Shown piece by piece: positions 1 to 30,749 of a DNA stretch of 30,976 nt. This DNA is from a virus. Lineage: Duplodnaviria; Heunggongvirae; Uroviricota; Caudoviricetes. Below the pieces are notes generated by a model. It ran no database searches and had not been told where the DNA came from. It saw only the letters and a program-made list of their open reading frames with translations. The stretch lies in the IMG/VR virus record IMGVR_UViG_3300030444_000240; one strand, given 5' to 3'. The position numbers were made by a program, and so were the translations under genes. How positions within the stretch are numbered: position 1 is the first letter of the stretch; every line of letters begins with the position of its first letter.

Positions 1-3000
1 TTTCTCGGTGCCATGACGGAGGATGATGCCCGTCCTGAGGCACTGCGCCGTTTTGAACTGATGGTGGAAGAGGTGGCGCGTAACGCGTCCGCGGTGGCAC
101 AGAACACGGCAGCCGCGAAGAAGTCAGCCAGCGATGCCAGCACATCAGCCCGTGAGGCGGCAACCCATGCGACTGATGCTGCAGGCTCAGCACGCGCAGC
201 CAGCACGTCAGCCGGACAGGCTGCTTCGTCGGCTCAGTCAGCGTCTTCCAGCGCAGGAACGGCATCAACAAAGGCCACTGAAGCATTAAAAAGTGCTGCC
301 GCTGCAGAGTCCTCAAAAAGCGCGGCGGCTACCAGTGCCGGTGCGGCGAAAACGTCAGAAACGAATGCGGCAGCGTCACAACAATCAGCAGCCACTTCTG
401 CATCCACCGCGACCACGAAAGCGTCAGAAGCAGCCACTTCAGCACGGGATGCGTCGGCTTCAAAAGAGGCGGCAAAATCATCAGAAACGAACGCATCATC
501 AAGCGCCAGTAGTGCCGCTTCCTCGGCAACGGCGGCAGGAAATTCCGCGAAGGCGGCAAAAACGTCCGAGACGAACGCCAGGTCTTCTGAAACGGCAGCG
601 GGACAGAGCGCCTCGGCTGCGGCAGGCTCAAAAACAGCGGCTGCATCATCTGCCAGCGCCGCGTCAACAAGTGCCGGGCAGGCCTCAGCCAGTGCCACCG
701 CTGCCGGAAAGTCGGCAGAAAGTGCCGCATCGTCTGCTTCAACAGCCACAACGAAGGCTGGCGAAGCCACTGAGCAGGCCACGGCAGCAGCGAGGTCTGC
801 TTCCGCAGCGAAGACATCCGAAACGAACGCAAAAGCGTCGGAAACCCGTGCAGAATCCTCAAAAACGGCAGCGGCATCGTCCGCCAGTTCGGCGGCGTCA
901 TCGGCATCATCGGCGTCTGCTTCAAAAGATGAGGCGACCAGACAGGCGTCAGCAGCGAAGGGCAGCGCCACGACGGCATCCACGAAGGCGACAGAGGCTG
1001 CTGGCAGTGCGACGGCAGCAGCTCAGAGCAAAAGTACGGCGGAATCTGCAGCAACGCGCGCTGAGACAGCGGCAAAACGGGCAGAGGATATTGCATCCGC
1101 CGTGGCGCTTGAGGATGCGAGCACGACGAAAAAGGGGATAGTACAGCTCAGTAGTGCGACTAACAGCACTTCCGAGTCACTGGCGGCAACACCAAAAGCC
1201 GTTAAGGCCGCGTATGACCTGGCTAACGGGAAATACACCGCACAGGATGCAACGACAGCACAGAAAGGGATAGTTCAGCTAAGCAGTGCGACCAACAGTA
1301 CGTCTGAAACGCTGGCGGCAACGCCAAAGGCAGTAAAATCAGCCTATGACAATGCAGAGAAACGTCTGCAGAAAGACCAGAACGGCGCTGATATACCCGA
1401 TAAGGGACGCTTCCTGAACAACATTAACGCGGTCAGTAAAACAGACTTTGCTGATAAGCGTGGTATGCGTTATGTGCGGGTTAACGCTCCTGCAGGTGCA
1501 ACATCTGGAAAATATTACCCTGTTGTTGTTATGCGTTCTGCTGGCTCAGTAAGCGAACTGGCATCAAGGGTCATTATCACCACGGCAACGCGAACCGCAG
1601 GCGATCCGATGAATAACTGCGAGTTTAACGGATTTGTTATGCCTGGTGGCTGGACTGACAGGGGGCGTTATGCTTATGGAATGTTCTGGCAATATCAAAA
1701 CAATGAACGAGCCATCCACTCAATAATGATGAGTAATAAGGGCGATGATTTGCGCTCTGTGTTCTATGTTGATGGCGCAGCTTTCCCTGTTTTTGCGTTT
1801 ATCGAAGATGGCCTGTCAATATCCGCACCTGGTGCTGATCTCGTTGTTAATGATACGACCTATAAGTTTGGGGCAACAAATCCAGCGACTGAATGTATCG
1901 CGGCGGACGTTATCCTTGATTTTAAGAGTGGGCGTGGTTTTTATGAGTCTCATTCGTTAATCGTTAACGATAACTTGTCATGCAAAAAACTTTTTGCCAC
2001 AGACGAAATTGTAGCGCGTGGTGGTAATCAGATTCGAATGATAGGTGGGGAGTATGGTGCATTATGGCGTAATGATGGCGCTAAAACTTACCTGCTGCTT
2101 ACCAATCAAGGTGATGTTTATGGTGGCTGGAATACATTAAGACCGTTTGCTATTGATAACGCAACCGGCGAACTGGTTATTGGAACCAAACTGTCCGCAA
2201 GTCTGAACGGTAATGCATTAACAGCAACAAAGCTGCAAACGCCAAGACTGGTTTCTGGTGTTGAGTTTGATGGTTCCAAAGATATTACTTTAACCGCCGC
2301 GCATGTGGCTGCTTTTGCCAGAAGGGCAACGGATACATATGCCGATGCGGATGGTGGCGTTCCCTGGAATGCCGAATCAGGCGCTTACAATGTCACCCGC
2401 TCTGGCGACAGCTATATTCTGGTTAACTTCTATACCGGAGTCGGAAGTTGCCGGACCCTGCAGATGAAGGCGCATTACAGAAATGGTGGTCTGTTCTACC
2501 GTTCTTCAAGAGACGGTTATGGTTTTGAGGAAGGCTGGGCAGAAGTTTATACCTCGAAAAATCTTCCACCAGAAAGCTACCCAGTCGGCGCACCAATCCC
2601 GTGGCCATCAGATACCGTTCCGTCTGGTTATGCCCTGATGCAGGGGCAGACTTTTGACAAATCTGCCTACCCGAAACTTGCAGCCGCTTATCCGTCAGGC
2701 GTGATCCCTGATATGCGTGGCTGGACGATTAAGGGCAAACCCGCCAGTGGTCGTGCCGTATTGTCTCAGGAACAGGACGGCATTAAATCGCACACCCACA
2801 GCGCCAGCGCATCCAGTACGGATTTGGGTACGAAAACCACATCGTCGTTTGATTACGGCACTAAATCCACGAATAACACCGGGGCGCATACCCATAGTTT
2901 AAGTGGCAGCACGAATGCAGCTGGTAATCACAGCCATAGAGATGGCCGTCGATTTAACCCCAGTGTTTTTAAAGATACTTATCAATATGGTTATACAAGC

Positions 3001-3267
3001 TCAGGTCAAAATACCTGGGATGTACAAGGCTCAGTAGGTATGTCTACGGGGTGGTTAGCTAATACCAGTACAGATGGTAATCATAGCCACTCACTGTCCG
3101 GCACAGCAGCATCTGCAGGTGCACACGCGCATACTGTCGGTATTGGTGCTCATACGCACTCTGTTGCGATTGGCTCACATGGACACACCATCACCGTTAA
3201 CGCTGCTGGTAACGCGGAAAACACCGTCAAAAACATCGCATTTAACTACATTGTGAGGCTTGCATAA
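1..3267 (+). CDS. stf: Side tail fiber protein, lambda Stf-like (5' partial; frame open from window position 1)
   Basis: Translation begins [24 protein letters not shown], then a long Ala/Ser/Thr-rich segment with KTSETNA repeats, and ends with PIPWPSD...[10 protein letters not shown] and His-rich GAHTHS/GSHGHT repeats and [11 protein letters not shown], matching the lambda Stf architecture as recalled. The central part (about 1380-2550) is a different, non-repetitive domain, and there is a tandem repeat of a [28 protein letters not shown] unit at about 1129-1350. Confidence 0.9.
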
Positions 3268-3838
3268 TGGCATTCAGAATGAGTGAACAACCACGGACCA
3301 TAAAAATTTATAATCTGCTGGCCGGAACTAATGAATTTATTGGTGAAGGTGACGCATATATTCCACCTCATACAGGTCTGCCTGCAAACAGTACCGATAT
3401 TGCACNNNNNNNNNNNNNNNNNNNNNNNNNNNNNNNNNNNNNNNNNNNNNNNNNNNNNNNNNNNNNNNNNCATCTCGTTGAAGATCATCGGGGTAAAACG
3501 GTTTATGACGTGGCTTCCGGCGACGCGTTATTTATTTCTGAACTCGGACCGCTACCGGAAAATGTTACCTGGTTGTCGCCGGGAGGGGAATATCAGAAGT
3601 GGAACGGCACAGCCTGGGTGAAGGATACGGAAGCAGAAAAACTGTTCCGGATCCGGGAGGCAGAAGAAACAAAAAACAGCCTGATGCAGGTAGCCAGTGA
3701 GCATATTGCGCCACTTCAGGATGCTGTAGATCTGGAAATCGCAACGGAGGAAGAAATCTCGTTGCTGGAAGCATGGAAGAAGTATCGGGTGTTGCTGAAC
3801 CGTGTTGATACATCAACTGCACCTGATATTGAGTGGCC
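3141..3838. repeat. Direct repeat copy 1 (stf 3' end plus tfa), about 700 bp, nearly identical by eye to 27794-28482
   Basis: Aligned by eye: tattggtgctcatacgcact... through ...gatattga(g/a)tggcc, with scattered substitutions. Copy 1 contains the N gap. Confidence 0.8.
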
Positions 3839-3860
3839 GATAATTCCTGTAACATCATAG
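3267..3860 (+). CDS. tfa: Tail fiber assembly protein (Tfa), copy 1; interrupted by an N gap
   Basis: [46 protein letters not shown] ... matches lambda Tfa as recalled; the ATG overlaps the stf stop (TAATG). Residues across 3406-3470 are unknown. Confidence 0.85.
3406..3470. other. Assembly gap or masked bases (65 N)
   Basis: Run of n characters in the sequence. Confidence 1.
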
Positions 3861-3972: not shown

Positions 3973-4926
3973 TTACCATATATCTATGGGTTTTGTTTTC
4001 TGCTCATCTAAACAAAATGCACAGATGTAAGCCCCCTTACTTCGGTTGTACTGAACCGTTTCTAAAGCAGAGTCAAGATGTTTACTATCAAAGTTCCAGC
4101 TTTTTTCCATAACAGAAACACATTTTCTGCAATAGAAACTTTCTTTTGAGTTAGTATCTCCTGAATCATTTTTAGTGTAGCCAAAGAATTTTTTTGCTGA
4201 TTCCTTTGAACATGCGGAAATGGCTGCAGTGAACTCATAATGAGTTTGAAGCATAGCCCATACAATACCTGAAAATTCTTCATCCTCGTCTTCATCTAAT
4301 CCTATATTAATGCCGCCAGAGGAATGTATTGCTTTATATTTATACCTATGCCATATCCAGTGTGCTGATTCAGTATTTAGATAGTTGTGAGCACGTACAA
4401 CTGATGTGAAAATTAGCTCTGGCATTATATCTGTTTTTTTATCAACCGTATGCATAAAACGATTTCTTAGAATGCGCATACTATTAAACCAAGTAATAAA
4501 GTCATCAGGCAGTGATTTAGAGGCGAAAGTATTATATACTTTAATTAAATCTTGGGCGTCTAATGTGTGGAAGTCTGAAAATGAAATGTTACCTTCACTA
4601 TCAGGTTTAGGTGTATTGCGAGTTGCATTCGTGATAAGTAGATAAGGTGATATTTCGACGATAAGTCCTTTTAGTCTGAATTCAATAGATTGAAGTATCA
4701 AATTAAAAGATGTAATCAATTTTGGTCTAGCAAATAACCAATAATGCTCTAAATTTTTAATATCTGATTCTGTATAGAATTCAGACGTTTTACAATAACT
4801 ATTCCAAAGGTTTATATCTCTGTAATCATAAGCTAAATCGGCAATTTTTTCCCAAGCCTCATTTACCATGTGGTCAGCCATTGTATAAAAATCAGTCTTT
4901 GTTGGAATGTCAGTTATCATTATCAA
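3973..4926 (-). CDS. Hypothetical protein with HEPN-like Rx4H motif and C-terminal CxxC...CxxC zinc-ribbon-like motif (candidate Abi-type protein)
   Basis: 317-aa ORF in AT-rich DNA just downstream of tfa. Contains RNRFMH (R-x4-H) in the middle and CRKC...CAFC near the C-terminus. No confident family assignment. Confidence 0.5.
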   Translation of the reverse strand: MIMITDIPTKTDFYTMADHMVNEAWEKIADLAYDYRDINLWNSYCKTSEFYTESDIKNLEHYWLFARPKLITSFNLILQSIEFRLKGLIVEISPYLLITNATRNTPKPDSEGNISFSDFHTLDAQDLIKVYNTFASKSLPDDFITWFNSMRILRNRFMHTVDKKTDIMPELIFTSVVRAHNYLNTESAHWIWHRYKYKAIHSSGGINIGLDEDEDEEFSGIVWAMLQTHYEFTAAISACSKESAKKFFGYTKNDSGDTNSKESFYCRKCVSVMEKSWNFDSKHLDSALETVQYNRSKGAYICAFCLDEQKTKPIDIW

Positions 4927-5696: not shown

Positions 5697-6065
5697 TTAA
5701 ATATTTAGCAGATCCTCTACAATATCATTAAACCCAGATGCCTGTTTAGATACAGAATTGAATAAGTCTCTAAGTGCTTGTGTTTGCTCAAAAGTTTCCC
5801 AAAGTGTTTTATAACTTGGCGTTACAATTGCTAATACTAAGCCTTCCGCCCATGACCATTCATGTTCATCAAAATAGTAGCGATATTTTCTGCTGTATAT
5901 AACAAAATCCTTTTCCTTATATTTAGCATGAAACACAACTTGAATTATATCCTGTGTACCATTAACAAGGTTTTCAGGCGCATCAATTGCCATCCAATTT
6001 ATCATTTTTTGGACAGTTAACTTATTTAATGAAACAATTAGCTTTGTGGTTTTATCGTTATGCAT
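5697..6065 (-). CDS. Hypothetical protein (122 aa), second gene of a two-gene operon
   Basis: ORF in AT-rich DNA; its ATG lies 2 nt after the stop of the upstream ORF (TAAttATG). No recognisable motifs. Confidence 0.5.
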   Translation of the reverse strand: MHNDKTTKLIVSLNKLTVQKMINWMAIDAPENLVNGTQDIIQVVFHAKYKEKDFVIYSRKYRYYFDEHEWSWAEGLVLAIVTPSYKTLWETFEQTQALRDLFNSVSKQASGFNDIVEDLLNI

Positions 6066-6067
6066 AA

Positions 6068-6529
6068 TTAGTCCAGTTGCATATCTTTCACAATTTCGTT
6101 AACTCTTGAGTTGAGTATACTCAACTTCTCATAGAGCTTCCAGGCTTGGTCTTGGTCATTGATATTAATGGAGATTTCTTTTCTTCGAAAGATTCCTTTG
6201 GGTTTGACTTCATCAAAAAATATATCAATCTTTGAGCGTTCCTTGGTTGGAAGCCTGCTGAAAAGGCTTTCAGTTAGCACTGCACACTCAGTAAACTCCT
6301 TACGTATAAATTCTTTCTGAGTAACCCAGTCTCCAATAGCATCATTTATCAATGAGGCTTTTTTTTGAAGATTGCTATGGATTTCAGGTATTCGAACCTT
6401 GTTTCTGAGAGTGGCCTTCAATGAACGCGTCGTAAAAAAAAGTTTTACAGTTACAACAAAACCGACAATACCCGCTAGGGAGGATATGTCAGTTACCGTC
6501 TGTGATAGGGGCCAAGTCAGGATATCCAT
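6068..6529 (-). CDS. Hypothetical protein (153 aa) with one predicted N-terminal transmembrane helix, first gene of a two-gene operon
   Basis: Hydrophobic stretch SSLAGIVGFVVTVKLFF near the N-terminus; tightly coupled to the downstream ORF. Confidence 0.5.
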   Translation of the reverse strand: MDILTWPLSQTVTDISSLAGIVGFVVTVKLFFTTRSLKATLRNKVRIPEIHSNLQKKASLINDAIGDWVTQKEFIRKEFTECAVLTESLFSRLPTKERSKIDIFFDEVKPKGIFRRKEISININDQDQAWKLYEKLSILNSRVNEIVKDMQLD

Positions 6530-6816: not shown

Positions 6817-7716
6817 TTATGTCTGGATGTGGTCGTCAACACATCCTCTTTTAAATACAGGCGCTTTTACCTTAGTTGGATCATCTGTTTTAAAGATTTT
6901 CAATCGTTCACTGAAGAACATTACCTCAGATCCTTTGTACCGATCTTGAGCACTGTAGTTTATTCCATATACTAATGATGATGTCTTATACATAGCTTGG
7001 ATCTCAGGAGTGTTATCGTAAGAAACAATCCAAGGTGTTTTAATATTATTCTGTACGACTTTTGCAACCCTAACATGATCATCATGATTATAATGGTTGA
7101 TATATAAACCTTTACCTTTTATGTAATAAGGTGGATCCAAATATGTTAATGAGTTTTGTGGCAATTGAATAACTATTTTTTTAATGAAATCAATTGCATC
7201 CATGTTATATAAATCTATTCTGTGACGATTTTCTGATATTTTATGGATTCGAGAAATCAAATCACTCTTATTATAGCGAGCGTCAAGCTTCCATTTCCCT
7301 TCTTGATTTTTACCGCCAATTACTCCACCTTTTAATATTCCAGAACGATTTGTTCTATTGAGAAAAAAGGTTGAGAAACCAATTGTTAAAAGATCATGGT
7401 CTTTAGGATTATTAATTATATCTTTCTGCCTAAACCATTCATCCATTGTAACTTCAGTTCTTTCAATTAAAGAACATAATTGATCTGCATGATTTAATAC
7501 ACTGTGCCAAAAAGCATAAACAGAAATATTAATATCATTAAGGATGATTTTTTCAGCTGCATTTAGATGTAACAGTTTCAATGCTAAACCAGCACCCCCA
7601 GCATATGGTTCGGCATAATGTATAGGCGAAAGATTATTTTCTTCAATAAGCCGAAGCATGAAATTTGCAAGCTTGCCTTTACCGCCAGGATAGCGAAGTG
7701 GGGTGTTAAAACGCAT
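6817..7716 (-). CDS. DNA N6-adenine methyltransferase, Dam/D12 class
   Basis: N-terminal RYPGGK, EPYAGGAG (AdoMet-binding motif I-like) and DPPY catalytic motif; 299 aa. Confidence 0.8.
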   Translation of the reverse strand: MRFNTPLRYPGGKGKLANFMLRLIEENNLSPIHYAEPYAGGAGLALKLLHLNAAEKIILNDINISVYAFWHSVLNHADQLCSLIERTEVTMDEWFRQKDIINNPKDHDLLTIGFSTFFLNRTNRSGILKGGVIGGKNQEGKWKLDARYNKSDLISRIHKISENRHRIDLYNMDAIDFIKKIVIQLPQNSLTYLDPPYYIKGKGLYINHYNHDDHVRVAKVVQNNIKTPWIVSYDNTPEIQAMYKTSSLVYGINYSAQDRYKGSEVMFFSERLKIFKTDDPTKVKAPVFKRGCVDDHIQT

Positions 7717-7750
7717 ATGATACCTCTAAATGTCAGATCTAAAGTATATC

Positions 7751-7789
7751 AAAAAAAGGGCTTTGTGGCCATCACATAAAGCCCTTTTT
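7751..7789 (-). terminator. Intrinsic terminator between the OLD-like gene and the MTase gene
   Basis: gggcttt-loop-aaagccc hairpin flanked by an A7 run and a T5 run; on the minus strand the stem is followed by a T-run. Confidence 0.6.
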
Positions 7790-7795
7790 AATCAA

Positions 7796-9529
7796 TTAGT
7801 TATCTGACAGATATGATGAGATGGTAGCAGAATCGACACCATGTCCACTTGTCATAATAACTTTAAGACTCTTTATTAGTTCATTCTTGAAGCTATCCGA
7901 TTGCACAGGATTTTTCTCGACCCAATATCGATATGGGTTATCTTTAACTCGCCCTTTTACTTGGGCCTGAAATTGAGTCGTATGTGCAAAATCTTTAAAC
8001 AGTTTTCTAACTATCCCGCCATGGTTTTTGTTAACTTTTTTATAATTATCTATAAGGATTTTTAAATCAATCGGAGCGTTACCAATCTTTAGCGTTGCAA
8101 TTATGTCTTTAGCTGTTTTCATAAAAACAGCTTTTGTAAATTTATTTTTATTTTCCCAATATGCATCATCAGGTGGTAAATTATATAAAAACTCAAAAAT
8201 CATTTGGTCTGGAGGTAAGGTGCTTGGAAGCAAACATAAGTTTTTTTCTTTTTTGGCTTTTTTTGCATTAGCACTATTGTCGTGAACAACATCACCGTCT
8301 AAGACGATCAAGCTTTTAGCTGTAAATTCTGGTATTTTTCTTGCCATTAAGTCAAGCATGGCAGAGCAGCTAATATTTATATTCCCTAATGGATTTAATA
8401 TTTTATTTATTTTTCGATCTGTTATCAATTGTTTGAAAAAGTCGAAACCTTCTTTGTCTTCAAAATATACATTTGCCTTTGGAAGACAAATGTCATCATT
8501 AATTTTTACAGTTTCAACATGTAAATCAGCGTGGATATCTGTCCATGAAAGATTATTCTTTGTTTTAATATCTCCATATGTGTCTGTAAGATATATTGTT
8601 TTAAAGCTATCACTATCTTGTTTTGAACGATTATAGATATCCTCTATTATTAATGGAGAGTGCGAGGTCATGATTATTTGCAGATCGTATTGTTTTGCTG
8701 CTTTAGTTAGAATATTAATTAGCTCTAACTGTGCAGCAGGGAAAAGACCTGCATCGGCTTCATCAATTAACAATATTCCGCCATGATAATCAGAATAAGT
8801 TTCCTTCAATCTTTTAAATGAAAAAATTGCTTGGATTAATTGTCCAACATTATCTTCACCAACAGATACTGATTGGTGATCATAATTGTCACCATGGACA
8901 ACCATTGAATCGATAGTACCTTTTGTTGCTGTTACTGAGCTTCCATTGTTTTTTAGTAAGAGTTGGTTACTCATCATTCTAATTTCATCAGAATTTTCAT
9001 TGATGTACTGAACATCCCGTGTTGAGTAATCAGTCCTTAATGTAATAGGAAGAAGTCGTGCTAAGCTTAAAAAAATAACAGGATGAGTAACGTTTCTACT
9101 TTGGTTTTTTTCCGGTATTGAATCATTTCCCCTGACTACAGGCCTTGATTTATCTCTGTCACTGTAGCTGTATAAACCTAATGTTAGTTTTTCAAGATGT
9201 TTGTTCGATGCACCATCATAGACACTAATTTTGACGTCCATTGAACCAGGAACATCAAATTGTTCTGAAAGCCTAAAATGTTCGCTGAAAGCTGACTTGA
9301 AGCTGCCATTTGTTAATGTTTTATATTGTGTTAAATCAGTCTCAGGGTTTTTGGTAAAGTCCTTTGTAAAGCTAAATATTTGGGCGATAATGCCAAGAAT
9401 TGTGGATTTAGATGTGCCATTTTTACCACAAATAACAGTTAGGCGAGAACCAAACTCGATGTTTATATTTTTCAGTCCGCGAAACTTCACAACATTTATA
9501 TTTTTTAGTTTGGTAATTTGATTTGCCAT
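7796..9529 (-). CDS. OLD-family ATP-dependent nuclease-like protein (ABC ATPase plus C-terminal Toprim-like domain)
   Basis: Walker A ICGKNGTSKST, Walker B ILLIDEAD, TSHSP motif, then C-terminal VYFEDKEGFDFF and LIVLDGD (DxD). Start chosen at MANQITKL (9529), which has a GGAG 9-13 nt upstream and a palindromic hairpin beyond it; the ORF track extends to 9580. Confidence 0.7.
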   Translation of the reverse strand: MANQITKLKNINVVKFRGLKNINIEFGSRLTVICGKNGTSKSTILGIIAQIFSFTKDFTKNPETDLTQYKTLTNGSFKSAFSEHFRLSEQFDVPGSMDVKISVYDGASNKHLEKLTLGLYSYSDRDKSRPVVRGNDSIPEKNQSRNVTHPVIFLSLARLLPITLRTDYSTRDVQYINENSDEIRMMSNQLLLKNNGSSVTATKGTIDSMVVHGDNYDHQSVSVGEDNVGQLIQAIFSFKRLKETYSDYHGGILLIDEADAGLFPAAQLELINILTKAAKQYDLQIIMTSHSPLIIEDIYNRSKQDSDSFKTIYLTDTYGDIKTKNNLSWTDIHADLHVETVKINDDICLPKANVYFEDKEGFDFFKQLITDRKINKILNPLGNINISCSAMLDLMARKIPEFTAKSLIVLDGDVVHDNSANAKKAKKEKNLCLLPSTLPPDQMIFEFLYNLPPDDAYWENKNKFTKAVFMKTAKDIIATLKIGNAPIDLKILIDNYKKVNKNHGGIVRKLFKDFAHTTQFQAQVKGRVKDNPYRYWVEKNPVQSDSFKNELIKSLKVIMTSGHGVDSATISSYLSDN

Positions 9530-9551
9530 GTTTCTATCTTGCTCCGTAAAA

Positions 9552-9570
9552 TGGCCACAAATTGTGGCCA
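9552..9570. other. Perfect 9+1+9 palindrome between the int 3' end and the OLD-like start
   Basis: tggccacaa-a-ttgtggcca; on the minus strand it is followed by ATTTTA. Could be the int terminator or a recombination or regulatory site. Confidence 0.4.
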
Positions 9571-9587
9571 ATAGTTTCATGCTTGGA

Positions 9588-10754
9588 TTATATTGTTATC
9601 TTCTTCAAGCTTGTTTGTCCATCATATTCCTTCAGATATGAGCCATAGTGCCTGAAAAGCATCTCAGGCCCTTTATGCCCCATTTGAGCTGCAAGCCAAA
9701 ACAGGTTTGCTCCCCGGCTGATATGTCTGGTGGCGAATGTATGCCTGGTTTGATATGGGTTTCTGTAACGAATACCTGCTTTTCGCAATGTTGGCACCCA
9801 TGCTTTTTTCCTAATTGCATCAGCACTTGCCCAGGGTTTATTGGTCTTTGGATCTTCAAAGACAGTAGCATCCTTCATGAATGTAAATGGCTTCTGGTTT
9901 ATCAACGCCAACATTGCTTCTTCAGTCAGTTCAACTTTACGGGTACCGGCTTTTGTCTTTGTTCCTTTGATAACTCCGACAACACTTGCGCTCTGAACAT
10001 GGGCTGTTTTTCCAACAAAGTCGATATCATGCCATCGTAGGGCACATAATTCAGAACTACGCAGGCCTGTATGTATGGCGAACCGGAACAGATTTTCCCA
10101 TTGTTTGTTTCCGGCTGCTGCTAGTAATGCATCAACTTCTGCTGGTGATAGCGGATCAACCACATAGCTGCTTTCTGCTTCTGACTTATCACTTTGGTAG
10201 CGCGAAGCAGTTACCAACGATACGGGGTTAATTTGAAGTACCCCATCGGTTACGGCTTCATCAAGTGCTGACCGCAGGAAAGATAACTGGTTGCGAATTG
10301 TTTTTAAGGTCGTTTTCTGGCTTTGAATCCACGCTTTCAGGATTGCTGGTGTTAATTCACTTGCAGGGCAAATGTGGAGTGAGGCTAACGCACTACGGCA
10401 TTTTTTATAACCACCAATCGTAGATGGTGAAAGTTTTCTCGTTTCGCAGATTTCAAGGTATTCGTCCAGGTACATTTTTACCGTTTTGCCTGCAGCAGCA
10501 TTACCAAAAATTTTCAAACGAGCAGAACGGGGAAAATATTCCGCATAAATGAATGTTCCCCTTTCGATCTTATTATGAATTTCGCCGAGTGTGCGCTCGG
10601 CGTATTTAATGTTCTTTGGTGTTACTTCCAGATTGGAAAGAGGCTCACGACATTTAACGCCTTTGTAGGTGAAAGTTATATTGATCGTTTCGCCCTGGCG
10701 GTGTTTCCTGATTGTTACGCCGCGCGGTAGTTTGAGCAGTTTTGTCTGGCCCAT
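9588..10754 (-). CDS. int: Tyrosine site-specific integrase
   Basis: 388 aa; C-terminal catalytic region with RHTFATRH (HxxR) and LFWLAAQMGHKGPEMLFRHYGSY (catalytic Tyr); N-terminal arm-binding-like segment. Confidence 0.9.
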   Translation of the reverse strand: MGQTKLLKLPRGVTIRKHRQGETINITFTYKGVKCREPLSNLEVTPKNIKYAERTLGEIHNKIERGTFIYAEYFPRSARLKIFGNAAAGKTVKMYLDEYLEICETRKLSPSTIGGYKKCRSALASLHICPASELTPAILKAWIQSQKTTLKTIRNQLSFLRSALDEAVTDGVLQINPVSLVTASRYQSDKSEAESSYVVDPLSPAEVDALLAAAGNKQWENLFRFAIHTGLRSSELCALRWHDIDFVGKTAHVQSASVVGVIKGTKTKAGTRKVELTEEAMLALINQKPFTFMKDATVFEDPKTNKPWASADAIRKKAWVPTLRKAGIRYRNPYQTRHTFATRHISRGANLFWLAAQMGHKGPEMLFRHYGSYLKEYDGQTSLKKITI

Positions 10755-20719: not shown

Positions 20720-20736
20720 TTTTGTGGAGAAAGTTG

Positions 20737-21114
20737 ATGCGTGATATTCAGATGGTTCTGGAGCGTTGGGGAGCATGGGCGGCTAATAATCATGAAGATG
20801 TGACCTGGTCGTCCATTGCCGCCGGTTTTAAGGGATTAATTCCTTCAAAAGTAAAATCTCGCCCGCAATGTTGTGACGATGACGCGATGATCATTTGCGG
20901 GTGCATGGCCCGTCTGAAAAAGAACAACAGCGATTTGCACGATTTATTGGTGGACTATTATGTCGGCGGCATGACTTTTATGGCGCTTGCACGTAAGCAT
21001 GGGCGATCTGATTGTTGGGTTGGCAGGATGCTCCAGAAAGCTGAGGGCGTAGTGGAGGGTATGCTGATGGTGTTGGATCTCCGATTGGAGATGGATGCTG
21101 ATTGTTCGAAATAA
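20737..21114 (+). CDS. Late-gene antiterminator Q-like protein
   Basis: Last gene of the early-right operon, immediately followed by a tR'-type terminator; Cys-rich ([12 protein letters not shown]). Start set at the ATG (MRDIQ); the track uses a TTG at 20722. Confidence 0.7.
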
Positions 21115-21212
21115 TTAAAGGAAAAGTTGCTGTCTGATTCTCATTAGTCTAACATTTTAAATGTTGGAATCGCAACGTAGTTATTATCATATAACAGCTT
21201 GTTTCCTGATTT

Positions 21213-21241
21213 AGCCAGCCTCCCCAAAGGCTGGTTTTTTT
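21213..21241 (+). terminator. tR'-like intrinsic terminator downstream of Q
   Basis: ccagcc-tccccaaa-ggctgg hairpin followed by a T7 run. Confidence 0.6.
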
Positions 21242-21269
21242 CTAATAAGTATTATTTCGGGTAGGGATT

Positions 21270-21794
21270 TTATTGTTTAACCCATAATAATTCATTGACA
21301 TTGAATCCCAACTTTTGAGCGGTTCGCACATAGTCTGCTTTTACTTTATCTGGAATAGTTGGGGTCCTTGCCAGAATCCATAGGTATTCTCTGTTCGGAC
21401 CACTGACAAGAGCATACTTATACTCATCATCCAGTTTGATTACATTATAGCCACCATAGAAGGGGCCAAAAAACGAAACCTTCAACGCTGCAGTTTTAGT
21501 ATCTCCAGTAAAGTATGCTTTACCTTCGCTCTCGCTCCATTTATTTTTCGTTGGATCGTATCCACGGTTAAGTACACGAATCCCTCCGTCGTTCCGTTTT
21601 CCATAAGTAGCGCTGACCTGTTCCAGACCACGTTCGAACCGGTTCTCGAGGCGAGCTATTTCATACCACTTTCCGAGGTAGCGGTTGGCGTCAAAATTTG
21701 TAATCGGCTGCACACCTTTAGGTGGTGTCGGGGCCTTACATGCTATAAGAGTGAAAGAGAGTGCAATGCCAGTCAACACAGGCCATAACTTCAT
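21270..21794 (-). CDS. blc: Bacterial lipocalin (Blc-like) outer-membrane lipoprotein
   Basis: Signal peptide with lipobox (LIAC); NFDANRYLGKWYEIARLENRFERG and KVSFFGPFYGGYNVI match Blc as recalled. Confidence 0.85.
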   Translation of the reverse strand: MKLWPVLTGIALSFTLIACKAPTPPKGVQPITNFDANRYLGKWYEIARLENRFERGLEQVSATYGKRNDGGIRVLNRGYDPTKNKWSESEGKAYFTGDTKTAALKVSFFGPFYGGYNVIKLDDEYKYALVSGPNREYLWILARTPTIPDKVKADYVRTAQKLGFNVNELLWVKQ

Positions 21795-21986
21795 AATAAA
21801 TCCTGTACTTTTGATAGTTGAGAGTAAGTATGAAAGATAGATGATTACGACCGATCACTTAAAGAACTTTCATACTATATTAGGAATAGTCCATAACAGA
21901 AAAATTGTCAGTGATGACGCCAGAAAGGCAATTTATTCCGTGCACTACACAGTTTATGTGTTAATGAATTAGTCAAGGGGGAGGAT

Positions 21987-22946
21987 ATGATAAAAAAACC
22001 TGTGATTGGAATCAGCGGTTGTCTGGCCGGTTCTGCTGTTCGTTTTGATGGTGGTCACAAAAGAGCTGACTTTTTAATGGACAAATTAGTGGAATGGGTA
22101 ACATTCAGACCAGTATGTCCGGAAATGGCTATAGGGCTGCCAGTTCCGCGTCCTGCTCTACGTCTTGTGCGCTCGACGCAAGGAAATATTCGGATGTGTT
22201 TCAGCCACGACCAGAATGAGGATGTGACAGAGAGAATGACAGAGTTTAGTCGTTCTTATATGGACAAATTAAAGGATGTATCGGGGTTTGTGGTTTGTGC
22301 TAAATCTCCCAGCTGTGGCATGGAGCGCGTGCGTGTCTATGATGAAAATGGTAATCGAGGTCGTAAAGATGGAGTGGGACTATTTACGAGCACTTTGATG
22401 GAAAAGTTTTCCTGGCTACCGGTTGAAGAGGATGGGCGATTACATGATCCAGTGCTTCGTGAGAATTTTGTTGAAAGAGTTTTTGCTTTGCATGAGCTCA
22501 ATCACCTTTACAAGGAGAAATTATCAAGAAGAGAGTTATTAGCTTTTCATAGTCGTTATAAGCTTCAGTTGTTGGCGCATAGTCAGGCAGGCTATAAAGA
22601 TATGGGACCATTTGTGGCTGCAATACACGAGTGGGCGGACCTTGAATCATACTTTGAGGTGTATCGTGATAAGCTGATGGCGATTCTCAGAAAACCTGCA
22701 TCACGTAAAAATCACACGAATGTGCTGATGCATATACAGGGGTATTTTAGTAACTACTTAAGTACACGCCAGCGTAAAGAGTTGAGCGAGGTTATACTTA
22801 ACTATCGTTCTGGCACATTACCTCTTCTTGCGCCGTTGACTCTGCTGAAGCATTATCTGGGTGAGTATCCTAATGATTACTTGCTTACACAGAATTACTT
22901 CGATCCCTATCCGGACGAACTGGCTCTAAGACTGATGGTAAATTAA
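21987..22946 (+). CDS. DUF523/DUF1722 fusion protein (YbbK/YbgA-like; DUF523 resembles TudS-type desulfidases)
   Basis: 319 aa with N-terminal Cys residues (GISGCLAG, VCPE, SCGMERV); GGAGG RBS upstream. Family assignment from memory. Confidence 0.6.
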   Translation: MIKKPVIGISGCLAGSAVRFDGGHKRADFLMDKLVEWVTFRPVCPEMAIGLPVPRPALRLVRSTQGNIRMCFSHDQNEDVTERMTEFSRSYMDKLKDVSGFVVCAKSPSCGMERVRVYDENGNRGRKDGVGLFTSTLMEKFSWLPVEEDGRLHDPVLRENFVERVFALHELNHLYKEKLSRRELLAFHSRYKLQLLAHSQAGYKDMGPFVAAIHEWADLESYFEVYRDKLMAILRKPASRKNHTNVLMHIQGYFSNYLSTRQRKELSEVILNYRSGTLPLLAPLTLLKHYLGEYPNDYLLTQNYFDPYPDELALRLMVN

Positions 22947-23297
22947 TTGTATGCGATATCATCCAAAAGGATGAGTTCCTGCATGCAGGATATTTACAAT
23001 CGTAAAAACTACACTATGATACCCAGAGTGTCAGTTTGTATAAAAACTCTGTTTACGCTGAAGAAACCATTGAGATGCAACTTAAAGTTGGTAAACATGC
23101 CAGTCAAAATATATAATATTATGATTCCACGCAGCTATATATAATATAACAGATTGGTTTAATAATTTGTCTTTGTGAGTTAAATACATAATTTTATACT
23201 TGTGATGCAATGAGATTTTCCTTATTGTTGAACTGGCGAATATTGATTTTCCACCTATACTTACCTGGTGTAACCCCAATGATATCAGGTGGATAAT

Positions 23298-24024
23298 ATG
23301 CCATACATATGTTCTATCATTTTGGTGTTGAACTCGTTTGATGTCCGAATTGGTAAAGAAGATATTTTATTTAAAAAAGGAAGTGCTGTTCTCATTGATT
23401 ACAATTTAAAAGATTTTTTTTTCATCAAATATAGATCATGCAATGATCGTAGATGTTGAAGAGAAAACAGTTAATGATTTCTTTAAAAGCAACACACTCT
23501 CACCTTTTTCTGTAAGAAGGTTTTATCCGGCATACTTGATGGTGGAATGTGAAGATTTTTCATTGTTAAAGAACTTGATTGCATGCTTGAATTGTGATGG
23601 CAGAACTGTGGATTTTGTTAGAAATCAAATATCACTTGCATGTCTTGCTATCTTATCTTCAGAGAAAATAGTGCAAAGTTTTTTATTTGGATGTCTTAAT
23701 AGTTTAGGAAGTAAAGTTAAGGCTATTATTCACACGGATATATCTGCAGCATGGAGACTTTGTGATATATCTTCAAGACTGTATCTGAGTGAAAGTCTGT
23801 TAAAAGGAAAATTAAAGCACGAAGGCTTATCATTTAGTAAGTTAATTCTTGAAGAGCGAATGGTGATGGCGGAAAGGTTATTAAGCTACAATTTATATTC
23901 TGTTGGAAAAGTTACTGAGATATGCGGTTATGAAAACACGTCATATTTTGTAAGTGTTTTCAGAAGATATTTTGGTGTTCCTCCCCATCAATATTCATCA
24001 AGATTTTTTTTAGAAAAGACATGA
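23298..24024 (+). pseudogene. AraC-family regulator gene interrupted by a frameshift at a T9 tract
   Basis: N-terminal frame (23298-23453) MPYICSIILVLNSFDVRIGKED... and C-terminal frame (23443-24024) with an AraC HTH region (FRRYFGVPPHQY) align to the intact paralog at 29997-30749; the frames meet at T9 (23414-23422), and T8 would restore one ORF. Confidence 0.6.
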
Positions 24025-24217
24025 TGTAACGTGATGCGTTTTAATGATTTTGTAATTTTCGTATTTGATAATTGTATGATGCTTTCAGCTACGCCAGAAT
24101 AATCGCTGGCGTTTTTCTTTTTGAATAGATGTTCAAGCCTTACGCTAATGTAACTTCTATACCTTTCCTCTTCGTTCCGAACCGTGTACACCATCCGTTA
24201 TTTGCGGAGGTGAGGCT

Positions 24218-24433
24218 ATGAAATCCATGGATAAGTTAACAACGGGCATTGCCTACGGCACCTCCGCAGGCAGTGCTGGCTACTGGTTTTTACAGCTGCT
24301 CGATAAAGTCACGCCCTCACAGTGGGCAGCAATAGGTGTGCTGGGTAGCTTGGTATTTGGCCTGCTGACGTACCTGACAAACCTTTATTTCAAGATTAAA
24401 GAAGATAAGCGCAAGGCTGCACGGGGAGAGTAA
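24218..24433 (+). CDS. Phage-21-type class II holin (pinholin, S21-like)
   Basis: [26 protein letters not shown]...[19 protein letters not shown] closely matches S21 as recalled, including the dual-start MKSM motif. Confidence 0.85.
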
Positions 24434-27287: not shown

Positions 27288-27908
27288 ATGGAAGTCAACA
27301 AAAAGCAGCTGGCTGACATTTTCGGTGCGAGTATCCGTACCATTCAGAACTGGCAGGAACAGGGAATGCCCGTTCTGCGAGGCGGTGGCAAGGGTAATGA
27401 GGTGCTTTATGACTCTGCCGCCGTTATAAAATGGTATGCCGAAAGGGATGCTGAAATTGAGAACGAAAAGCTGCGCCGGGAGGTTGAAGAACTGCGCCAG
27501 GCCAGCGAGGCAGATCTCCAGCCAGGGACTATTGAGTACGAACGCCATCGACTTACGCGTGCGCAGGCCGACGCACAGGAACTGAAGAATGCCAGAGACT
27601 CCGCTGAAGTGGTGGAAACCGCATTCTGTACTTTCGTGCTGTCGCGGATCGCAGGTGAAATTGCCAGTATTCTCGACGGGATCCCCCTGTCGGTGCAGCG
27701 GCGTTTTCCGGAACTGGAAAACCGACATGTTGATTTCCTGAAACGGGATATCATCAAAGCCATGAACAAAGCAGCCGCGCTGGATGAACTGATATTGGTG
27801 CTCATACGCACTCCGTTGCGATTGGTTCACATGGACATACCATCACCGTTAACGCTGCTGGTAACGCGGAAAACACCGTCAAAAACATCGCATTTAACTA
27901 TATTGTGA
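27288..27908 (+). pseudogene. nu1: Terminase small subunit Nu1, 3'-truncated and fused out of frame to the 3' end of a tail fiber gene
   Basis: MEVNKKQLADIFGASIRTIQNWQEQGMPVLRGGGKGNEVLYDSAAVIKWY... matches lambda Nu1 to about residue 169 (AAALDELI); from about 27794 the DNA matches the stf 3' end read in another frame. Confidence 0.8.
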
Positions 27909-28482
27909 GGCTTGCATAATGGCATTCAGAATGAGTGAACAACCACGGACCATAAAAATTTATAATCTGCTGGCCGGAACTAATGAATTTATTGGTGAAG
28001 GTGACGCATATATTCCGCCTCATACAGGTCTGCCAGCAAACAGTACCGATATTGCACCGCCAGATATTCCGGCAGGCTTCGTGGCTGTTTTCAACAGTGA
28101 TGAGGCATCGTGGCATCTCGTTGAAGATCATCGGGGTAAAACGGTTTATGACGTGGCTTCCGGCGACGCGTTATTTATTTCTGAACTCGGTCCGTTACCG
28201 GAAAATGCCACTTGGTTATCCCCGGAAGGGGAGTTTCAGAAGTGGAACGGCACAGCCTGGGTGAAAGATGCAGAAGCAGAAAAACTATTCCGGATCCGGG
28301 AGGCGGAAGAAACAAAAAACAGCCTGATGCAGGCAGCGAATGAGCATATTGCGCCACTTCAGGATGCTGTAGATCTGGAAATCGCAACGGAGGAAGAAAA
28401 CTCGTTGCTGGAAGCCTGGAAAAAGTATCGGGTGTTGCTGAACCGTGTTAATACAACAACTGCTCCGGATATTGAATGGCCA
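27794..28482. repeat. Direct repeat copy 2 (stf 3' end plus tfa), nearly identical by eye to 3141-3838
   Basis: See copy 1; the junction with Nu1 is at about 27794-27796. Confidence 0.8.
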
Positions 28483-28500
28483 GTAGCACCTATAGGGTAA
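27919..28500 (+). CDS. tfa: Tail fiber assembly protein (Tfa), copy 2, intact
   Basis: 193 aa, [74 protein letters not shown]...; nearly identical to copy 1 until the C-terminal tail. Confidence 0.9.
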
Positions 28501-29438: not shown

Positions 29439-29491
29439 NNNNNNNNNNNNNNNNNNNNNNNNNNNNNNNNNNNNNNNNNNNNNNNNNNNNN
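29439..29491. other. Assembly gap or masked bases (53 N)
   Basis: Run of n characters 18 nt after the tRNA fragment. Confidence 1.
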
Positions 29492-29996: not shown

Positions 29997-30749
29997 GTGG
30001 ATGATATGGCAACTACATGTTCAGTTATATTGATTTTGGAGTCCTTTGATGTTTATTTCGGAAAAGAGAGTGTGTTTCTGGAGAGAGGTTCATCTGTACT
30101 TGTCGACTCTAGCTCTAGAGATTTTTTCCTGACATATCCTGAAAGAGTGATAGTGGCGGATTTTGGCGCTGAGTTTATTAGTCGCTATTTGAAAGCTAAT
30201 AACTTAAGGGATATTTCTGATTGTAGGGAATATCCATCTTATTTAAAAATAAACTTTGCTGACTTCAGTTTAATTAAAGGATTAATTAGTTGGGCTAATC
30301 ACTGTGCTGAATACATAGAAATTTTTGATGAGTCTATTGCTTTTACATGTCTCTCTGCATTTTCTTCTGAAAAACAATTTGGAGTATTTCTGTTTGAATG
30401 TTTGAAAAGCACAGGGGCTAAAGTTAAAACGATTATTCATACGGATTTATCTGCACCATGGCGTCTTAAGGATATATCATCAAGATTATATCTCAGCGAA
30501 AGTTTACTAAAGAGGAAATTGAAAGAAGAGGGGGTATCATTCAGTAAGATCATACTTGATGAGAGGATGCAAATGGCTGAATATTTACTCTGCACTCGTT
30601 GTTATCCTATTAGTAAAGTAGCTAAGGTCTGTGGTTATGCCAGTGTCTCATACTTTACTTATGTATTTAGACGTTATTTTGGTGTTTCTCCAAGTCAATA
30701 CTCTCAGAGGAGTTCAGAAAGTAAAATTCTTACTCACCAGGGAATCTGA
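29997..30749 (+). CDS. AraC-family transcriptional regulator (AppY/EnvY-like)
   Basis: 250 aa; C-terminal HTH region WRLKDISSRLYLSESLLKRKLKEEGVSFSKIILDERMQMAEYLL ... YFTYVFRRYFGVSPSQY. Confidence 0.8.
   Translation: MDDMATTCSVILILESFDVYFGKESVFLERGSSVLVDSSSRDFFLTYPERVIVADFGAEFISRYLKANNLRDISDCREYPSYLKINFADFSLIKGLISWANHCAEYIEIFDESIAFTCLSAFSSEKQFGVFLFECLKSTGAKVKTIIHTDLSAPWRLKDISSRLYLSESLLKRKLKEEGVSFSKIILDERMQMAEYLLCTRCYPISKVAKVCGYASVSYFTYVFRRYFGVSPSQYSQRSSESKILTHQGI

What the first reader, a model, noticed from the sequence alone, without database searches (positions are those of the whole stretch)
23298..23453. T9 homopolymer frameshift splitting an AraC-family gene
The N-terminal and C-terminal parts of an AraC-like protein both align to the intact paralog at 29997-30749 but are in different frames that meet at T9 (23414-23422); T8 would give one intact ORF of about 242 aa. 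This is either slipped-strand phase variation, a pseudogene, or a homopolymer sequencing error.
Basis: seen in the sequence. Interest (0 to 1): 0.4.

Follow-up and report, generated by a model that had tools for sequence, protein, structure and literature searches.

The report
Real T9 frameshift in prophage regulator
One extra T in a run of eight T's has split a prophage-borne AraC-type regulator gene of E. coli; the change is a real, inherited mutation rather than a sequencing error, and it is an ordinary gene-inactivating slip at a mutation-prone spot.

Summary
T9 lies at 23414-23422. The N-terminal frame (23298-23459) and the C-terminal frame (23443-24024) overlap only at 23410-23456. Removing one T gives a 241-aa AraC/XylS protein that aligns without gaps, at 51% identity, to the paralog at 29997-30749, which is a 99% ortholog of the Sakai PatE locus.

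T9 is not a sequencing error. The same split allele, with identical flanks, was read in 18 fetched places (at least 13 distinct records): NCBI genomes, ENA gut metagenomes and a Logan run.

The same allele also exists intact with T8 (E. coli S43, WP_073528140.1). Four of these loci match the window over 2.5-3.7 kb except for that one T.

Among 5426 complete E. coli genomes the tract is T8 in 254, T7 in 292 and T9 in 1. T6 also occurs. T7 and T9 each sit on at least two haplotypes. Diverged alleles have an interrupted tract, and the eight sampled showed no length change.

Secondary lesions occur only on frameshifted copies: a nonsense codon in 50 T7 genomes and none with T8, plus an IS1 in T9 strain NCTC11023.

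Best reading: a recent, heritable T8-to-T9 slippage mutation at a hotspot, giving a null or weakened allele. Classical phase variation is not supported. Partial rescue by transcriptional slippage on U9, as in Shigella mxiE, remains possible but untested.

The parts
23298..23459 (+). N-terminal fragment ORF: 53 aa, of which 41 are native residues (MPYICS...NLKDF) and 12 are out of frame (FFIKYRSCNDRRC region), ending at TGA.
   Evidence: The exact 53-aa product is annotated in other genomes (P0054). A Shine-Dalgarno-like AGGTGGA lies at 23287-23293.
23414..23422 (+). T9 homopolymer covering codons 40-42 (GAT TTT TTT TCA in the intact T8 allele). This is the site of the +1 insertion.
   Evidence: T8 twins of the allele differ from the window only here.
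23410..23456 (+). The only stretch where both reading frames are open. Any frame-correcting event, in DNA or in mRNA, must happen here.
23443..24024 (+). C-terminal fragment ORF of 193 aa, equal to residues 49-241 of the intact protein. [quoted passage not shown] No Shine-Dalgarno sequence precedes its ATG.
   Evidence: PF12833, PF00165; GadX DNA-binding domain 3mkl
24004..24016 (+). Second pair of variable runs at the 3' end: T8 at 24004-24011 and A4 at 24013-24016 (A5 in most alleles). They change the last residues from EKDMM* to EKT*.
24091..24122 (+). Intrinsic-terminator-like hairpin followed by a T run, downstream of the gene.
23372..23380 (.). The 9-bp target site that is duplicated around an IS1A insertion in the T9 allele of strain NCTC11023. 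The window itself has no IS1.
20722..22946 (.). The rest of the cargo cassette in which the gene sits: Q antiterminator (20722-21114, +), lipocalin Blc-like (21270-21794, -) and YbgA-family protein (21987-22946, +). The holin essD follows at 24218-24433.
   Evidence: The same cassette is present in isolated lambdoid phages.
29997..30749 (+). Intact paralog (ATG at 30006), a 99% ortholog of Sakai ECs_0287, which is the PatE locus of prophage Sp1 / O-island 8.
   Evidence: PMC10877973

Best explanation
The window carries a genuine, heritable +1 frameshift allele (T8 to T9) of an uncharacterised prophage cargo gene. The gene encodes an AraC/XylS regulator of the PatE/PsrA/YdeO/AppY type. The mutation arose by strand slippage in a run of eight T's formed by the codons GAT TTT TTT TCA. 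It cuts the protein after residue 41. The DNA-binding half is left in a second frame with no ribosome-binding site of its own. The allele is therefore a recent pseudogene, null or at best strongly weakened. The tract is a mutational hotspot that has broken this gene repeatedly in E. coli. It does not behave like a programmed on/off switch. Shown here: the frameshift itself, that it is real, that it is inherited, that an identical T8 twin allele exists, and that the tract has changed length repeatedly. Inferred: loss of function, and slippage as the mechanism.
For: 1. The frame structure and the homology of both halves are established.

2. The change is real. The exact 193-aa C-terminal ORF is indexed in 53 blocks, on 23 contigs. 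All 18 fetched places (at least 13 distinct records) have T9 with flanks identical to the window. They come from NCBI drafts, complete genome NCTC11023, ENA gut metagenome assemblies and a Logan run.

3. It is a one-step mutation. The exact T8-restored protein exists (P0027, WP_073528140.1, 55 contigs, 117 blocks; strain S43). T8 loci L026, L028, L029 and L030 differ from the window over 2.5-3.7 kb only by the one T.

4. It is inherited rather than flickering. NCTC11023 has T9 plus a later IS1 insertion. In the prophage background where T9 is commonest (L032, L034, L037, L038, L040) no T8 copy was seen. The T8 copies read were all in another background.

5. The tract is a hotspot. In 5426 complete genomes, exact-match counts are T8 254, T7 292 and T9 1. 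T6 occurs in L008. T7 lies on two different haplotypes, and a second T9 occurs in L011.

6. Decay follows the frameshift. The nonsense change TAC to TAA occurs with T7 in 50 genomes and with T8 in none.

7. There is no sign of selection for the repeat. Diverged alleles and the paralog have interrupted runs (GATCTTTTTTCA, GTTTTCTTTTCT, GATTTTTTCC), and the eight sampled rows of the interrupted-tract group showed no length change.

8. The intact gene is a real gene. dN/dS between intact alleles is 0.22-0.27. Nine residues within the first 41 are invariant across the family. The gene is intact in isolated phages.

9. Indel rates in E. coli rise exponentially with homopolymer length (PMC8510543).
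Against: The same allele exists in both T8 and T9 states with no other difference, and T9 occurs in at least five prophage backgrounds. Recurrent switching would produce this pattern as readily as one event followed by recombination. A run of nine T's is long enough for RNA polymerase slippage in E. coli (PMC1088944, PMC5009743), so the allele may not be fully null. No read-level, expression or phenotype data were available. The exact-match counts cover only the tract and 29 flanking bases, so 'T8' does not guarantee that the whole gene is intact.
Confidence: 0.75

Rival explanations
1. Leaky 'pseudo-pseudogene'. The T8-to-T9 change creates a run on which E. coli RNA polymerase slips. A fraction of transcripts then carry U8 or U11 and encode full-length protein of 241 or 242 aa. 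On this reading T9 is an attenuated allele rather than a null one, as in Shigella mxiE, an AraC-family gene read through a run of U's. This is compatible with the best explanation for the DNA event and differs only in the consequence.
For: The T9 tract lies exactly in the 47-nt overlap of the two frames. T8 and T11 both restore the ORF. Baranov et al. 2005 describe E. coli frameshift alleles in which A8 became A9 and argue that slippage still yields functional product; the same paper describes mxiE (PMC1088944). Atkins et al. 2016 state that slippage is efficient in vivo on runs of 9 A's or T's and adds up to 6 nucleotides (PMC5009743).
Against: Restoring the frame needs -1 or +2, not the commonest +1 product. 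The split architecture is not conserved: T9 was found in 1 of 5426 complete genomes, and most carriers have T8 or T7. NCTC11023 then acquired an IS1 in the T9 copy, which suggests little selection to keep it. No RNA or protein data exist.
Confidence: 0.3
2. Contingency locus. The T tract is a reversible, high-frequency slipped-strand switch that turns the regulator on (T8) and off (T7, T9) within clonal populations.
For: Tract lengths T6, T7, T8 and T9 all occur in the species. T7 and T9 each lie on more than one haplotype. The identical allele exists as T8 and as T9. More than half of the complete genomes carrying this allele group are out of frame.
Against: The tract is short for a mismatch-repair-proficient E. 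coli. It is not conserved in diverged alleles or in the paralog. The 50 T7 genomes with the nonsense codon have no T8 counterpart, so the tract stayed put while that clade expanded. All 18 places read for the T9 lineage are T9, with none at T7 or T10, although those lengths would yield the same 193-aa ORF. No T8 was seen in the main T9 background. Out-of-frame copies accumulate second lesions.
Confidence: 0.1
3. Homopolymer sequencing or assembly error: the true sequence is T8 and the gene is intact.
For: Homopolymers are a classic error site. The window contains runs of N, so it may come from a draft or masked record.
Against: T9 with 100% identical flanks was recovered in all 18 fetched places, from at least 13 distinct records and several sources, including a complete genome. 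In the same collections T8 is assembled for the twin allele.
Confidence: 0.02
4. The 193-aa C-terminal ORF is expressed on its own, by re-initiation at ATG 23443 (14 nt upstream of the N-fragment stop codon). It would then act as a truncated regulator that keeps the DNA-binding domain but lacks residues 1-48.
For: The HTH domain is complete and confidently modelled (pLDDT 84-92 over residues 150-220; Pfam hits). The start codon lies close to the upstream stop. The ORF is called as a gene in many records.
Against: No Shine-Dalgarno sequence precedes ATG 23443. The missing 48 residues hold nine family-invariant positions and four predicted beta strands of the N-terminal domain. Frameshifted copies go on to acquire nonsense and IS lesions.
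Confidence: 0.1

Closest known systems
PatE (z0321 / ECs_0287), the prophage-encoded AraC-like activator of acid-resistance genes in E. coli O157:H7
   Same: Both are about 240-250 aa with an AraC/XylS C-terminal HTH domain and the same conserved N-terminus (M..CS.IL.L.SFD). The alignment is gapless at 52% identity. Both are prophage-borne and AT-rich. The window carries a 99% PatE ortholog at 29997-30749.
   Different: This is a distinct paralog: 52% identity, and it sits between Q and the lysis genes rather than after the tail-fibre genes. Its function has not been tested. Here it is frameshifted.
PsrA/PsrB (ECs_1087 / z1789, z2104), prophage-encoded secretion regulators acting through GadE
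   Same: It belongs to the same family, with 47% identity over the C-terminal 159 aa. It sits in the same place in a lambdoid prophage, just downstream of the Q antiterminator.
   Different: There is no detectable DNA similarity. The neighbouring cargo differs: tRNAs in Sakai, against lipocalin and YbgA here. psrA is intact: its annotated 195 aa is only a conservative start call, because the frame stays open upstream.
Shigella flexneri mxiE, an AraC-family gene expressed by transcriptional slippage
   Same: An AraC-family activator gene made of two overlapping ORFs that meet at a run of T's. Slippage by RNA polymerase can fuse them (PMC1088944).
   Different: In mxiE the split form is the conserved, functional state, and one added nucleotide fuses the frames. 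Here the split form is a rare derived allele of an otherwise intact gene and needs -1 or +2. Slippage has not been tested.
E. coli 'pseudo-pseudogenes' of Baranov et al. 2005, where an A8-to-A9 frameshift makes a slippage-prone run
   Same: The DNA event is the same in kind: a one-base expansion of an 8-mer to a 9-mer homopolymer that both breaks the frame and creates a run on which RNA polymerase slips.
   Different: This gene is not among the cases I could see in that paper, and rescue here is only an inference.
Homopolymer contingency loci of Neisseria, Haemophilus, Campylobacter and Bordetella
   Same: A coding homopolymer whose length varies between strains and determines the reading frame.
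   Different: The tract is shorter, is not conserved among orthologues, shows no evidence of reversibility, and its out-of-frame copies decay further.

Membership tests
AraC/XylS transcription regulators | C-terminal double helix-turn-helix DNA-binding domain (Pfam HTH_18 / HTH_AraC) | tested here: met
   PF12833 scores 47.7 bits (cutoff 33.6) and PF00165 scores 34.0 bits (cutoff 26.6) on the restored protein. The GadX DNA-binding domain 3mkl matches at E 1.8e-19. Foldseek TM-score to 3mkl is 0.85, normalised to the target.
AraC/XylS transcription regulators | Two-domain build with an N-terminal regulatory or dimerisation domain, as in Rns, CsvR and ToxT | tested here: inconclusive
   Full-length Foldseek hits to CsvR, Rns and ToxT reach E 1e-8, but TM-scores are only 0.4. 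The N-domain model confidence is low (pLDDT 50-74).
YdeO (NCBIfam NF007407 equivalog) | Score above the curated cutoff of 348 bits | tested here: not met
   The score is 122.9 bits, although the alignment is end to end (1-235 against 1-233 of 253). The protein is a relative of YdeO, not YdeO.
PatE/PsrA/PsrB group of prophage AraC-like acid-resistance and type III secretion regulators | Sequence relatedness and prophage location | tested here: met
   52% identity to ECs_0287 and 47% to ECs_1087, with location in a lambdoid prophage downstream of Q. That ECs_0287 is PatE is inferred from the O-island 8 / Sp1 location given in PMC10877973.
PatE/PsrA/PsrB group of prophage AraC-like acid-resistance and type III secretion regulators | Activation of gadE/hdeA-type promoters, acid-resistance phenotype | not testable with these tools
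   No experimental data exist for this paralog. The literature searches returned only PatE, PsrA, PsrB and AppY.
Pseudogene (heritable inactivating lesion) | ORF disrupted relative to intact orthologues, and the disruption is real | tested here: met
   Intact T8 alleles exist. T9 was read in all 18 fetched places, at least 13 distinct records. PGAP marks such copies 'frameshifted'.
Pseudogene (heritable inactivating lesion) | Further decay after the first lesion | tested here: inconclusive
   The window has none: it is identical to its T8 twin apart from the tract. The T9 copy in NCTC11023 gained an IS1, and 50 T7 genomes gained a nonsense codon.
Phase-variable contingency locus | Repeat-length polymorphism between strains | tested here: met
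   T6, T7, T8 and T9 were all observed.
Phase-variable contingency locus | Repeat tract conserved among orthologues or alleles | tested here: not met
   The run is interrupted in the 90% and 86% DNA alleles and in the paralog.
Phase-variable contingency locus | Reversible, high-frequency switching within a clone | not testable with these tools
   No read-level or culture data were available. Indirect evidence points the other way: no T8 among nonsense-bearing copies, and T9 uniform in its lineage.
Programmed transcriptional slippage gene (mxiE, dnaX of Thermus, IS elements) | A run of at least 9 A's or T's at the junction of two overlapping ORFs | tested here: met
   T9 lies inside the 47-nt frame overlap.
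Programmed transcriptional slippage gene (mxiE, dnaX of Thermus, IS elements) | Split architecture conserved among homologues | tested here: not met
   T9 is present in 1 of 5426 complete genomes, while the intact T8 form is common.
Programmed transcriptional slippage gene (mxiE, dnaX of Thermus, IS elements) | Heterogeneous mRNA and a full-length product | not testable with these tools
   This needs cDNA sequencing and a Western blot.

The most novel reading that the evidence does not exclude
Tract length acts as a three-level dosage setting for a PatE-like regulator: T8 gives full expression, T7 gives none, and T9 gives low-level expression through RNA-polymerase slippage on U9, as in Shigella mxiE. 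On this reading the T9 allele, which has spread into at least five prophage backgrounds and is common in gut metagenomes, is a selected attenuated variant rather than a dead gene.
Probability: 0.12. Interest if true: 0.55.

Novelty: new member of a known kind. Interest (0 to 1): 0.28.

Why it matters
Prophage AraC-like regulators such as PatE, PsrA, PsrB and AppY plug into the E. coli acid-resistance and virulence circuits. This uncharacterised paralog is carried by roughly a fifth of complete E. coli genomes (1040 of 5426). In its commonest allele group more than half of the copies are knocked out at one eight-T run. This matters practically for annotation: the 193-aa 'HTH protein' calls are fragments. 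It also matters for strain comparisons of acid-resistance regulation. If the T9 form proved leaky through transcriptional slippage, it would be a natural chromosomal E. coli counterpart of mxiE. As it stands, this is an ordinary hotspot frameshift.

Tried and rejected
1. I first read the two residues that set the window apart from most alleles (R to G at 23806, A to T at 23914) as decay after inactivation. This is rejected, because the intact T8 protein with exactly these residues exists on 55 contigs.

2. Sakai psrA is annotated at 195 aa, the same size as the fragment here, so I suspected that PsrA is itself a split gene. This is rejected. The frame stays open upstream and encodes the usual N-terminus; the annotated start is simply conservative.

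3. L011 has T9 together with a 1-nt deletion 20 nt upstream, which looked like a compensating frameshift. This is rejected, because the shifted stretch runs into a TGA created by an A-to-G change.

4. I tried to find the source genome or a full-length twin of the window. No complete genome covers it. The best hit stops at window position 21023, so the window's prophage mosaic is not in that collection.

5. The primary PatE and PsrB papers (PMC3416394, PMC4288888) are not held. I relied on reviews and on the Sakai sequence instead.

6. The promoter scan found no more sigma-70-like sites than in shuffled sequence (6 against 6.9), so no promoter claim is made.

7. The structure model is only moderate (pLDDT 68). 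I used it for domain layout and nothing finer.

8. The exact-match counting separates tract lengths well, but it cannot tell whether the rest of each gene is intact.

Full report
**What is in the sequence**

Positions 23414-23422 are nine T's, the longest homopolymer in the window. An ORF begins at ATG 23298, preceded by AGGTGGA at 23287-23293. It passes through the tract and stops at 23457-23459. It encodes 53 aa, of which the last 12 are out of frame.

A second frame is open from 23410. Its first ATG is at 23443, and it runs to 24024, encoding 193 aa. The two open frames overlap only at 23410-23456, a 47-nt stretch that contains the tract.

Replacing T9 by T8 gives one ORF of 241 aa. T11 also restores the frame, with one extra Phe. 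T10 does not.

The restored protein aligns without gaps over 235 residues to the ORF at 29997-30749 (51% identity, E 2e-83). It aligns end to end to the NCBIfam YdeO model, below that model's cutoff. It carries the Pfam AraC HTH domains above threshold.

**What the gene is**

The window is an E. coli lambdoid prophage. The split gene lies in the cargo slot between the Q antiterminator (20722-21114) and the holin essD (24218). A lipocalin gene (21270-21794, minus strand) and a YbgA-family gene (21987-22946) share that slot. The same Q, lipocalin, YbgA, AraC, holin cassette, with an intact AraC gene, is present in isolated phages: IdasGreatGrand at 98.8% DNA identity with T8, and a set of lambda-like phages carrying an 86% allele.

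The prophage here is defective. The small terminase gene abuts a tail-fibre assembly gene, and no head or tail genes lie between them.

The paralog at 29997-30749 is 99% identical to Sakai ECs_0287, the only AraC-like gene of prophage Sp1 / O-island 8. A review places PatE (z0321) on O-island 8 (PMC10877973), so I infer that ECs_0287 is PatE. The split gene is 52% identical to it. It is 47% identical over the C-terminal 159 residues to PsrA (ECs_1087), which occupies the equivalent position downstream of Q in Sakai prophage Sp4.

PatE, PsrB and AppY activate the gadE/hdeA acid-resistance circuit (PMC10877973; PMC10057817). This paralog has no published characterisation that my searches found. 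Its homologues are essentially confined to Escherichia.

Between intact alleles dN/dS is 0.22-0.27, so the gene is normally under purifying selection. Nine of the first 41 residues are invariant across the family. The nearest solved structures are the GadX DNA-binding domain, CsvR, Rns and ToxT.

**Is T9 real?**

Yes. The exact 193-aa C-terminal ORF of the window is indexed in 53 blocks of the public collection, on 23 contigs. I read 18 fetched places, covering at least 13 distinct records. They came from NCBI draft genomes, the complete genome of NCTC11023, ENA gut-metagenome assemblies and a Logan assembly of an SRA run. Every one has T9, with flanks identical to the window.

In the same collections the twin allele is assembled with T8, so the data sets do resolve the difference. 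Sequencing error is therefore excluded for practical purposes.

**How old and how stable is it?**

The exact protein obtained by restoring T8 in the window exists. It is P0027 (WP_073528140.1), found for example in E. coli S43, on 55 contigs in 117 blocks. T8 loci L026, L028, L029 and L030 are identical to the window over 2.5-3.7 kb apart from the one T. T9 is thus a single-step, recent derivative of a functional allele. My earlier idea that two unusual residues were post-inactivation decay was wrong.

NCTC11023 carries the same T9 allele, with one mismatch in 3988 nt downstream. It also carries an IS1A inserted at 23372-23380, so T9 was inherited and the copy then decayed further.

T9 occurs in at least five prophage backgrounds. 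In one of them (L039, L041) it is identical in structure and sequence to the T8 group. In the background where it is commonest (L032, L034, L037, L038, L040) no T8 copy was seen. All T8 copies read were in the L042-type background or in L050. The simplest account is one T8-to-T9 event followed by module exchange and deletions. Repeated independent slippage cannot be excluded.

**The tract at the species level**

I ran exact-match searches with 11 nt, then the T run, then 18 nt, against 5426 complete E. coli genomes. The results were T8 in 254, T7 in 292 and T9 in 1, which is NCTC11023.

| Tract state | Complete genomes (of 5426) | Source |
|---|---|---|
| T8 (in frame) | 254 | |
| T7 | 292 | |
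| T9 | 1 (NCTC11023) | |
| T7 plus TAC-to-TAA nonsense at 23402 | 50 | |
| T8 plus the same nonsense | 0 | |

A haplotype table of 12 loci shows the following:
- T7 on two different SNP backgrounds: L002/L003, which share the derived 23441C with the window, and L005-L007.
- T8 on backgrounds close to each of these.
- T6 in L008.
- A second T9 in L011, together with other lesions.

A nonsense change (TAC to TAA at 23402) is found with T7 in 50 genomes and never with T8. It therefore arose inside an already frameshifted lineage, and the tract did not move while that clade expanded. The derived 23441C clade holds 57 genomes, of which at least 51 are inactivated.

Diverged alleles and the paralog have interrupted runs: GATCTTTTTTCA, GTTTTCTTTTCT and GATTTTTTCC. 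The eight sampled members of the interrupted-tract group showed no length change.

The T8 run is therefore an accident of codon choice (GAT TTT TTT TCA) that happens to be mutable. This fits the exponential dependence of E. coli indel rates on run length (PMC8510543). It is not a conserved switch.

**Mechanism and consequence**

Three things are shown:
- A +1 insertion in a homopolymer splits the gene.
- The N-fragment keeps 41 native residues.
- The DNA-binding domain lies in a frame whose first ATG has no Shine-Dalgarno sequence.

Two things are inferred. The insertion arose by replication slippage, and the allele is null or strongly weakened.

Two routes to residual activity remain open. 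First, nine T's are long enough for RNA-polymerase slippage in E. coli. Baranov et al. describe 8-to-9 expansions that should still yield product, and mxiE, an AraC-family gene, is normally read this way (PMC1088944; PMC5009743). Here the frame needs -1 or +2, not the commonest +1. Second, ribosomes terminating at 23457 could re-initiate at ATG 23443, giving a truncated regulator that lacks the first 48 residues. That truncation removes four predicted beta strands and nine invariant residues. Neither route could be tested.

**Comparison with known systems, and novelty**

[quoted passage not shown] It is a relative, not an equivalog, of YdeO. It is a paralog of PatE, PsrA and PsrB.

The lesion is an ordinary homopolymer frameshift of the kind PGAP flags as 'frameshifted' in hundreds of genomes. 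It fails two defining tests for a contingency locus or a programmed-slippage gene. The tract is not conserved, and the split architecture is not conserved either.

It is a new member of a known kind. The modest points of interest are the very high fraction of out-of-frame copies at one site, and the formal resemblance of the T9 allele to mxiE.

**Verdict**

- Observation: confirmed.
The lesion is a real, inherited slippage frameshift (a pseudogene). It is not an error, and it is not shown to be phase-variable.
- Confidence in the best explanation: 0.75.
- Interest: about 0.28.

Noticed in passing
window 29997-30749 (ATG 30006): The intact paralog is 99% identical to Sakai ECs_0287, the AraC-like gene of prophage Sp1 / O-island 8, where the acid-resistance activator PatE (z0321) is encoded. 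This non-O157 prophage remnant therefore carries a PatE ortholog after its tail-fibre assembly gene.
   Followed up: partly
window 6817-9580, minus strand: A D12-class N6-adenine methyltransferase (6817-7716) matches PADLOC PD-Lambda-5_B at E 5e-124. It sits next to a 594-aa AAA ATPase (7796-9580) with PtuA-, GajA- and AriA-like hits, directly beside the integrase (9588-10754). This is probably a PD-Lambda-5-type defence pair. Three neighbouring ORFs (3973-4926, 5697-6065, 6068-6529) have no Pfam or PADLOC match.
   Followed up: partly
window 24004-24016: Two more variable runs lie at the 3' end of the same gene: T8 (T7, or C followed by T7, in other strains) and A4 (A5 in most alleles). They change the C-terminal tail from EKDMM* to EKT*. 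This shows that other homopolymers in this AT-rich gene also drift.
   Followed up: partly
window 27288-28500: The small terminase gene (nu1-like, 27288-27908) is followed directly by a tail-fibre assembly gene (27919-28500). The head and tail genes are missing, so the prophage is a deletion remnant. Related loci show different deletion end points and IS1 insertions.
   Followed up: partly
window 3406-3470 and 29439-29491: There are runs of N, 65 and 53 bases long. One lies inside a tail-fibre assembly gene (3267-3860). These are masked or unresolved stretches.
   Followed up: no
window 3267-3860 and 27919-28500: Two closely similar tail-fibre assembly genes (tfa) lie about 24 kb apart in direct orientation. 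They are potential substrates for recombination or deletion.
   Followed up: no
window 13-3267: The large tail-fibre protein has a long, highly repetitive Ala/Ser/Thr-rich N-terminal half. This produces long spurious ORFs in other frames (234-1141).
   Followed up: no
L015 (Sakai NC_002695.2) 23640-24391: The annotated start of psrA (ECs_1087, 195 aa) looks too far downstream. The frame is open further upstream and encodes the family-typical N-terminus MVVVCSVIMVCSPINIF..., which would give a protein of about 240 aa.
   Followed up: partly
window 23298-24024 versus the whole window: The gene has 31.8% G+C, against 44.3% for the window and 43.5% for the neighbouring ybgA-like gene. This is typical of horizontally acquired, H-NS-silenced regulators.
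   Followed up: no
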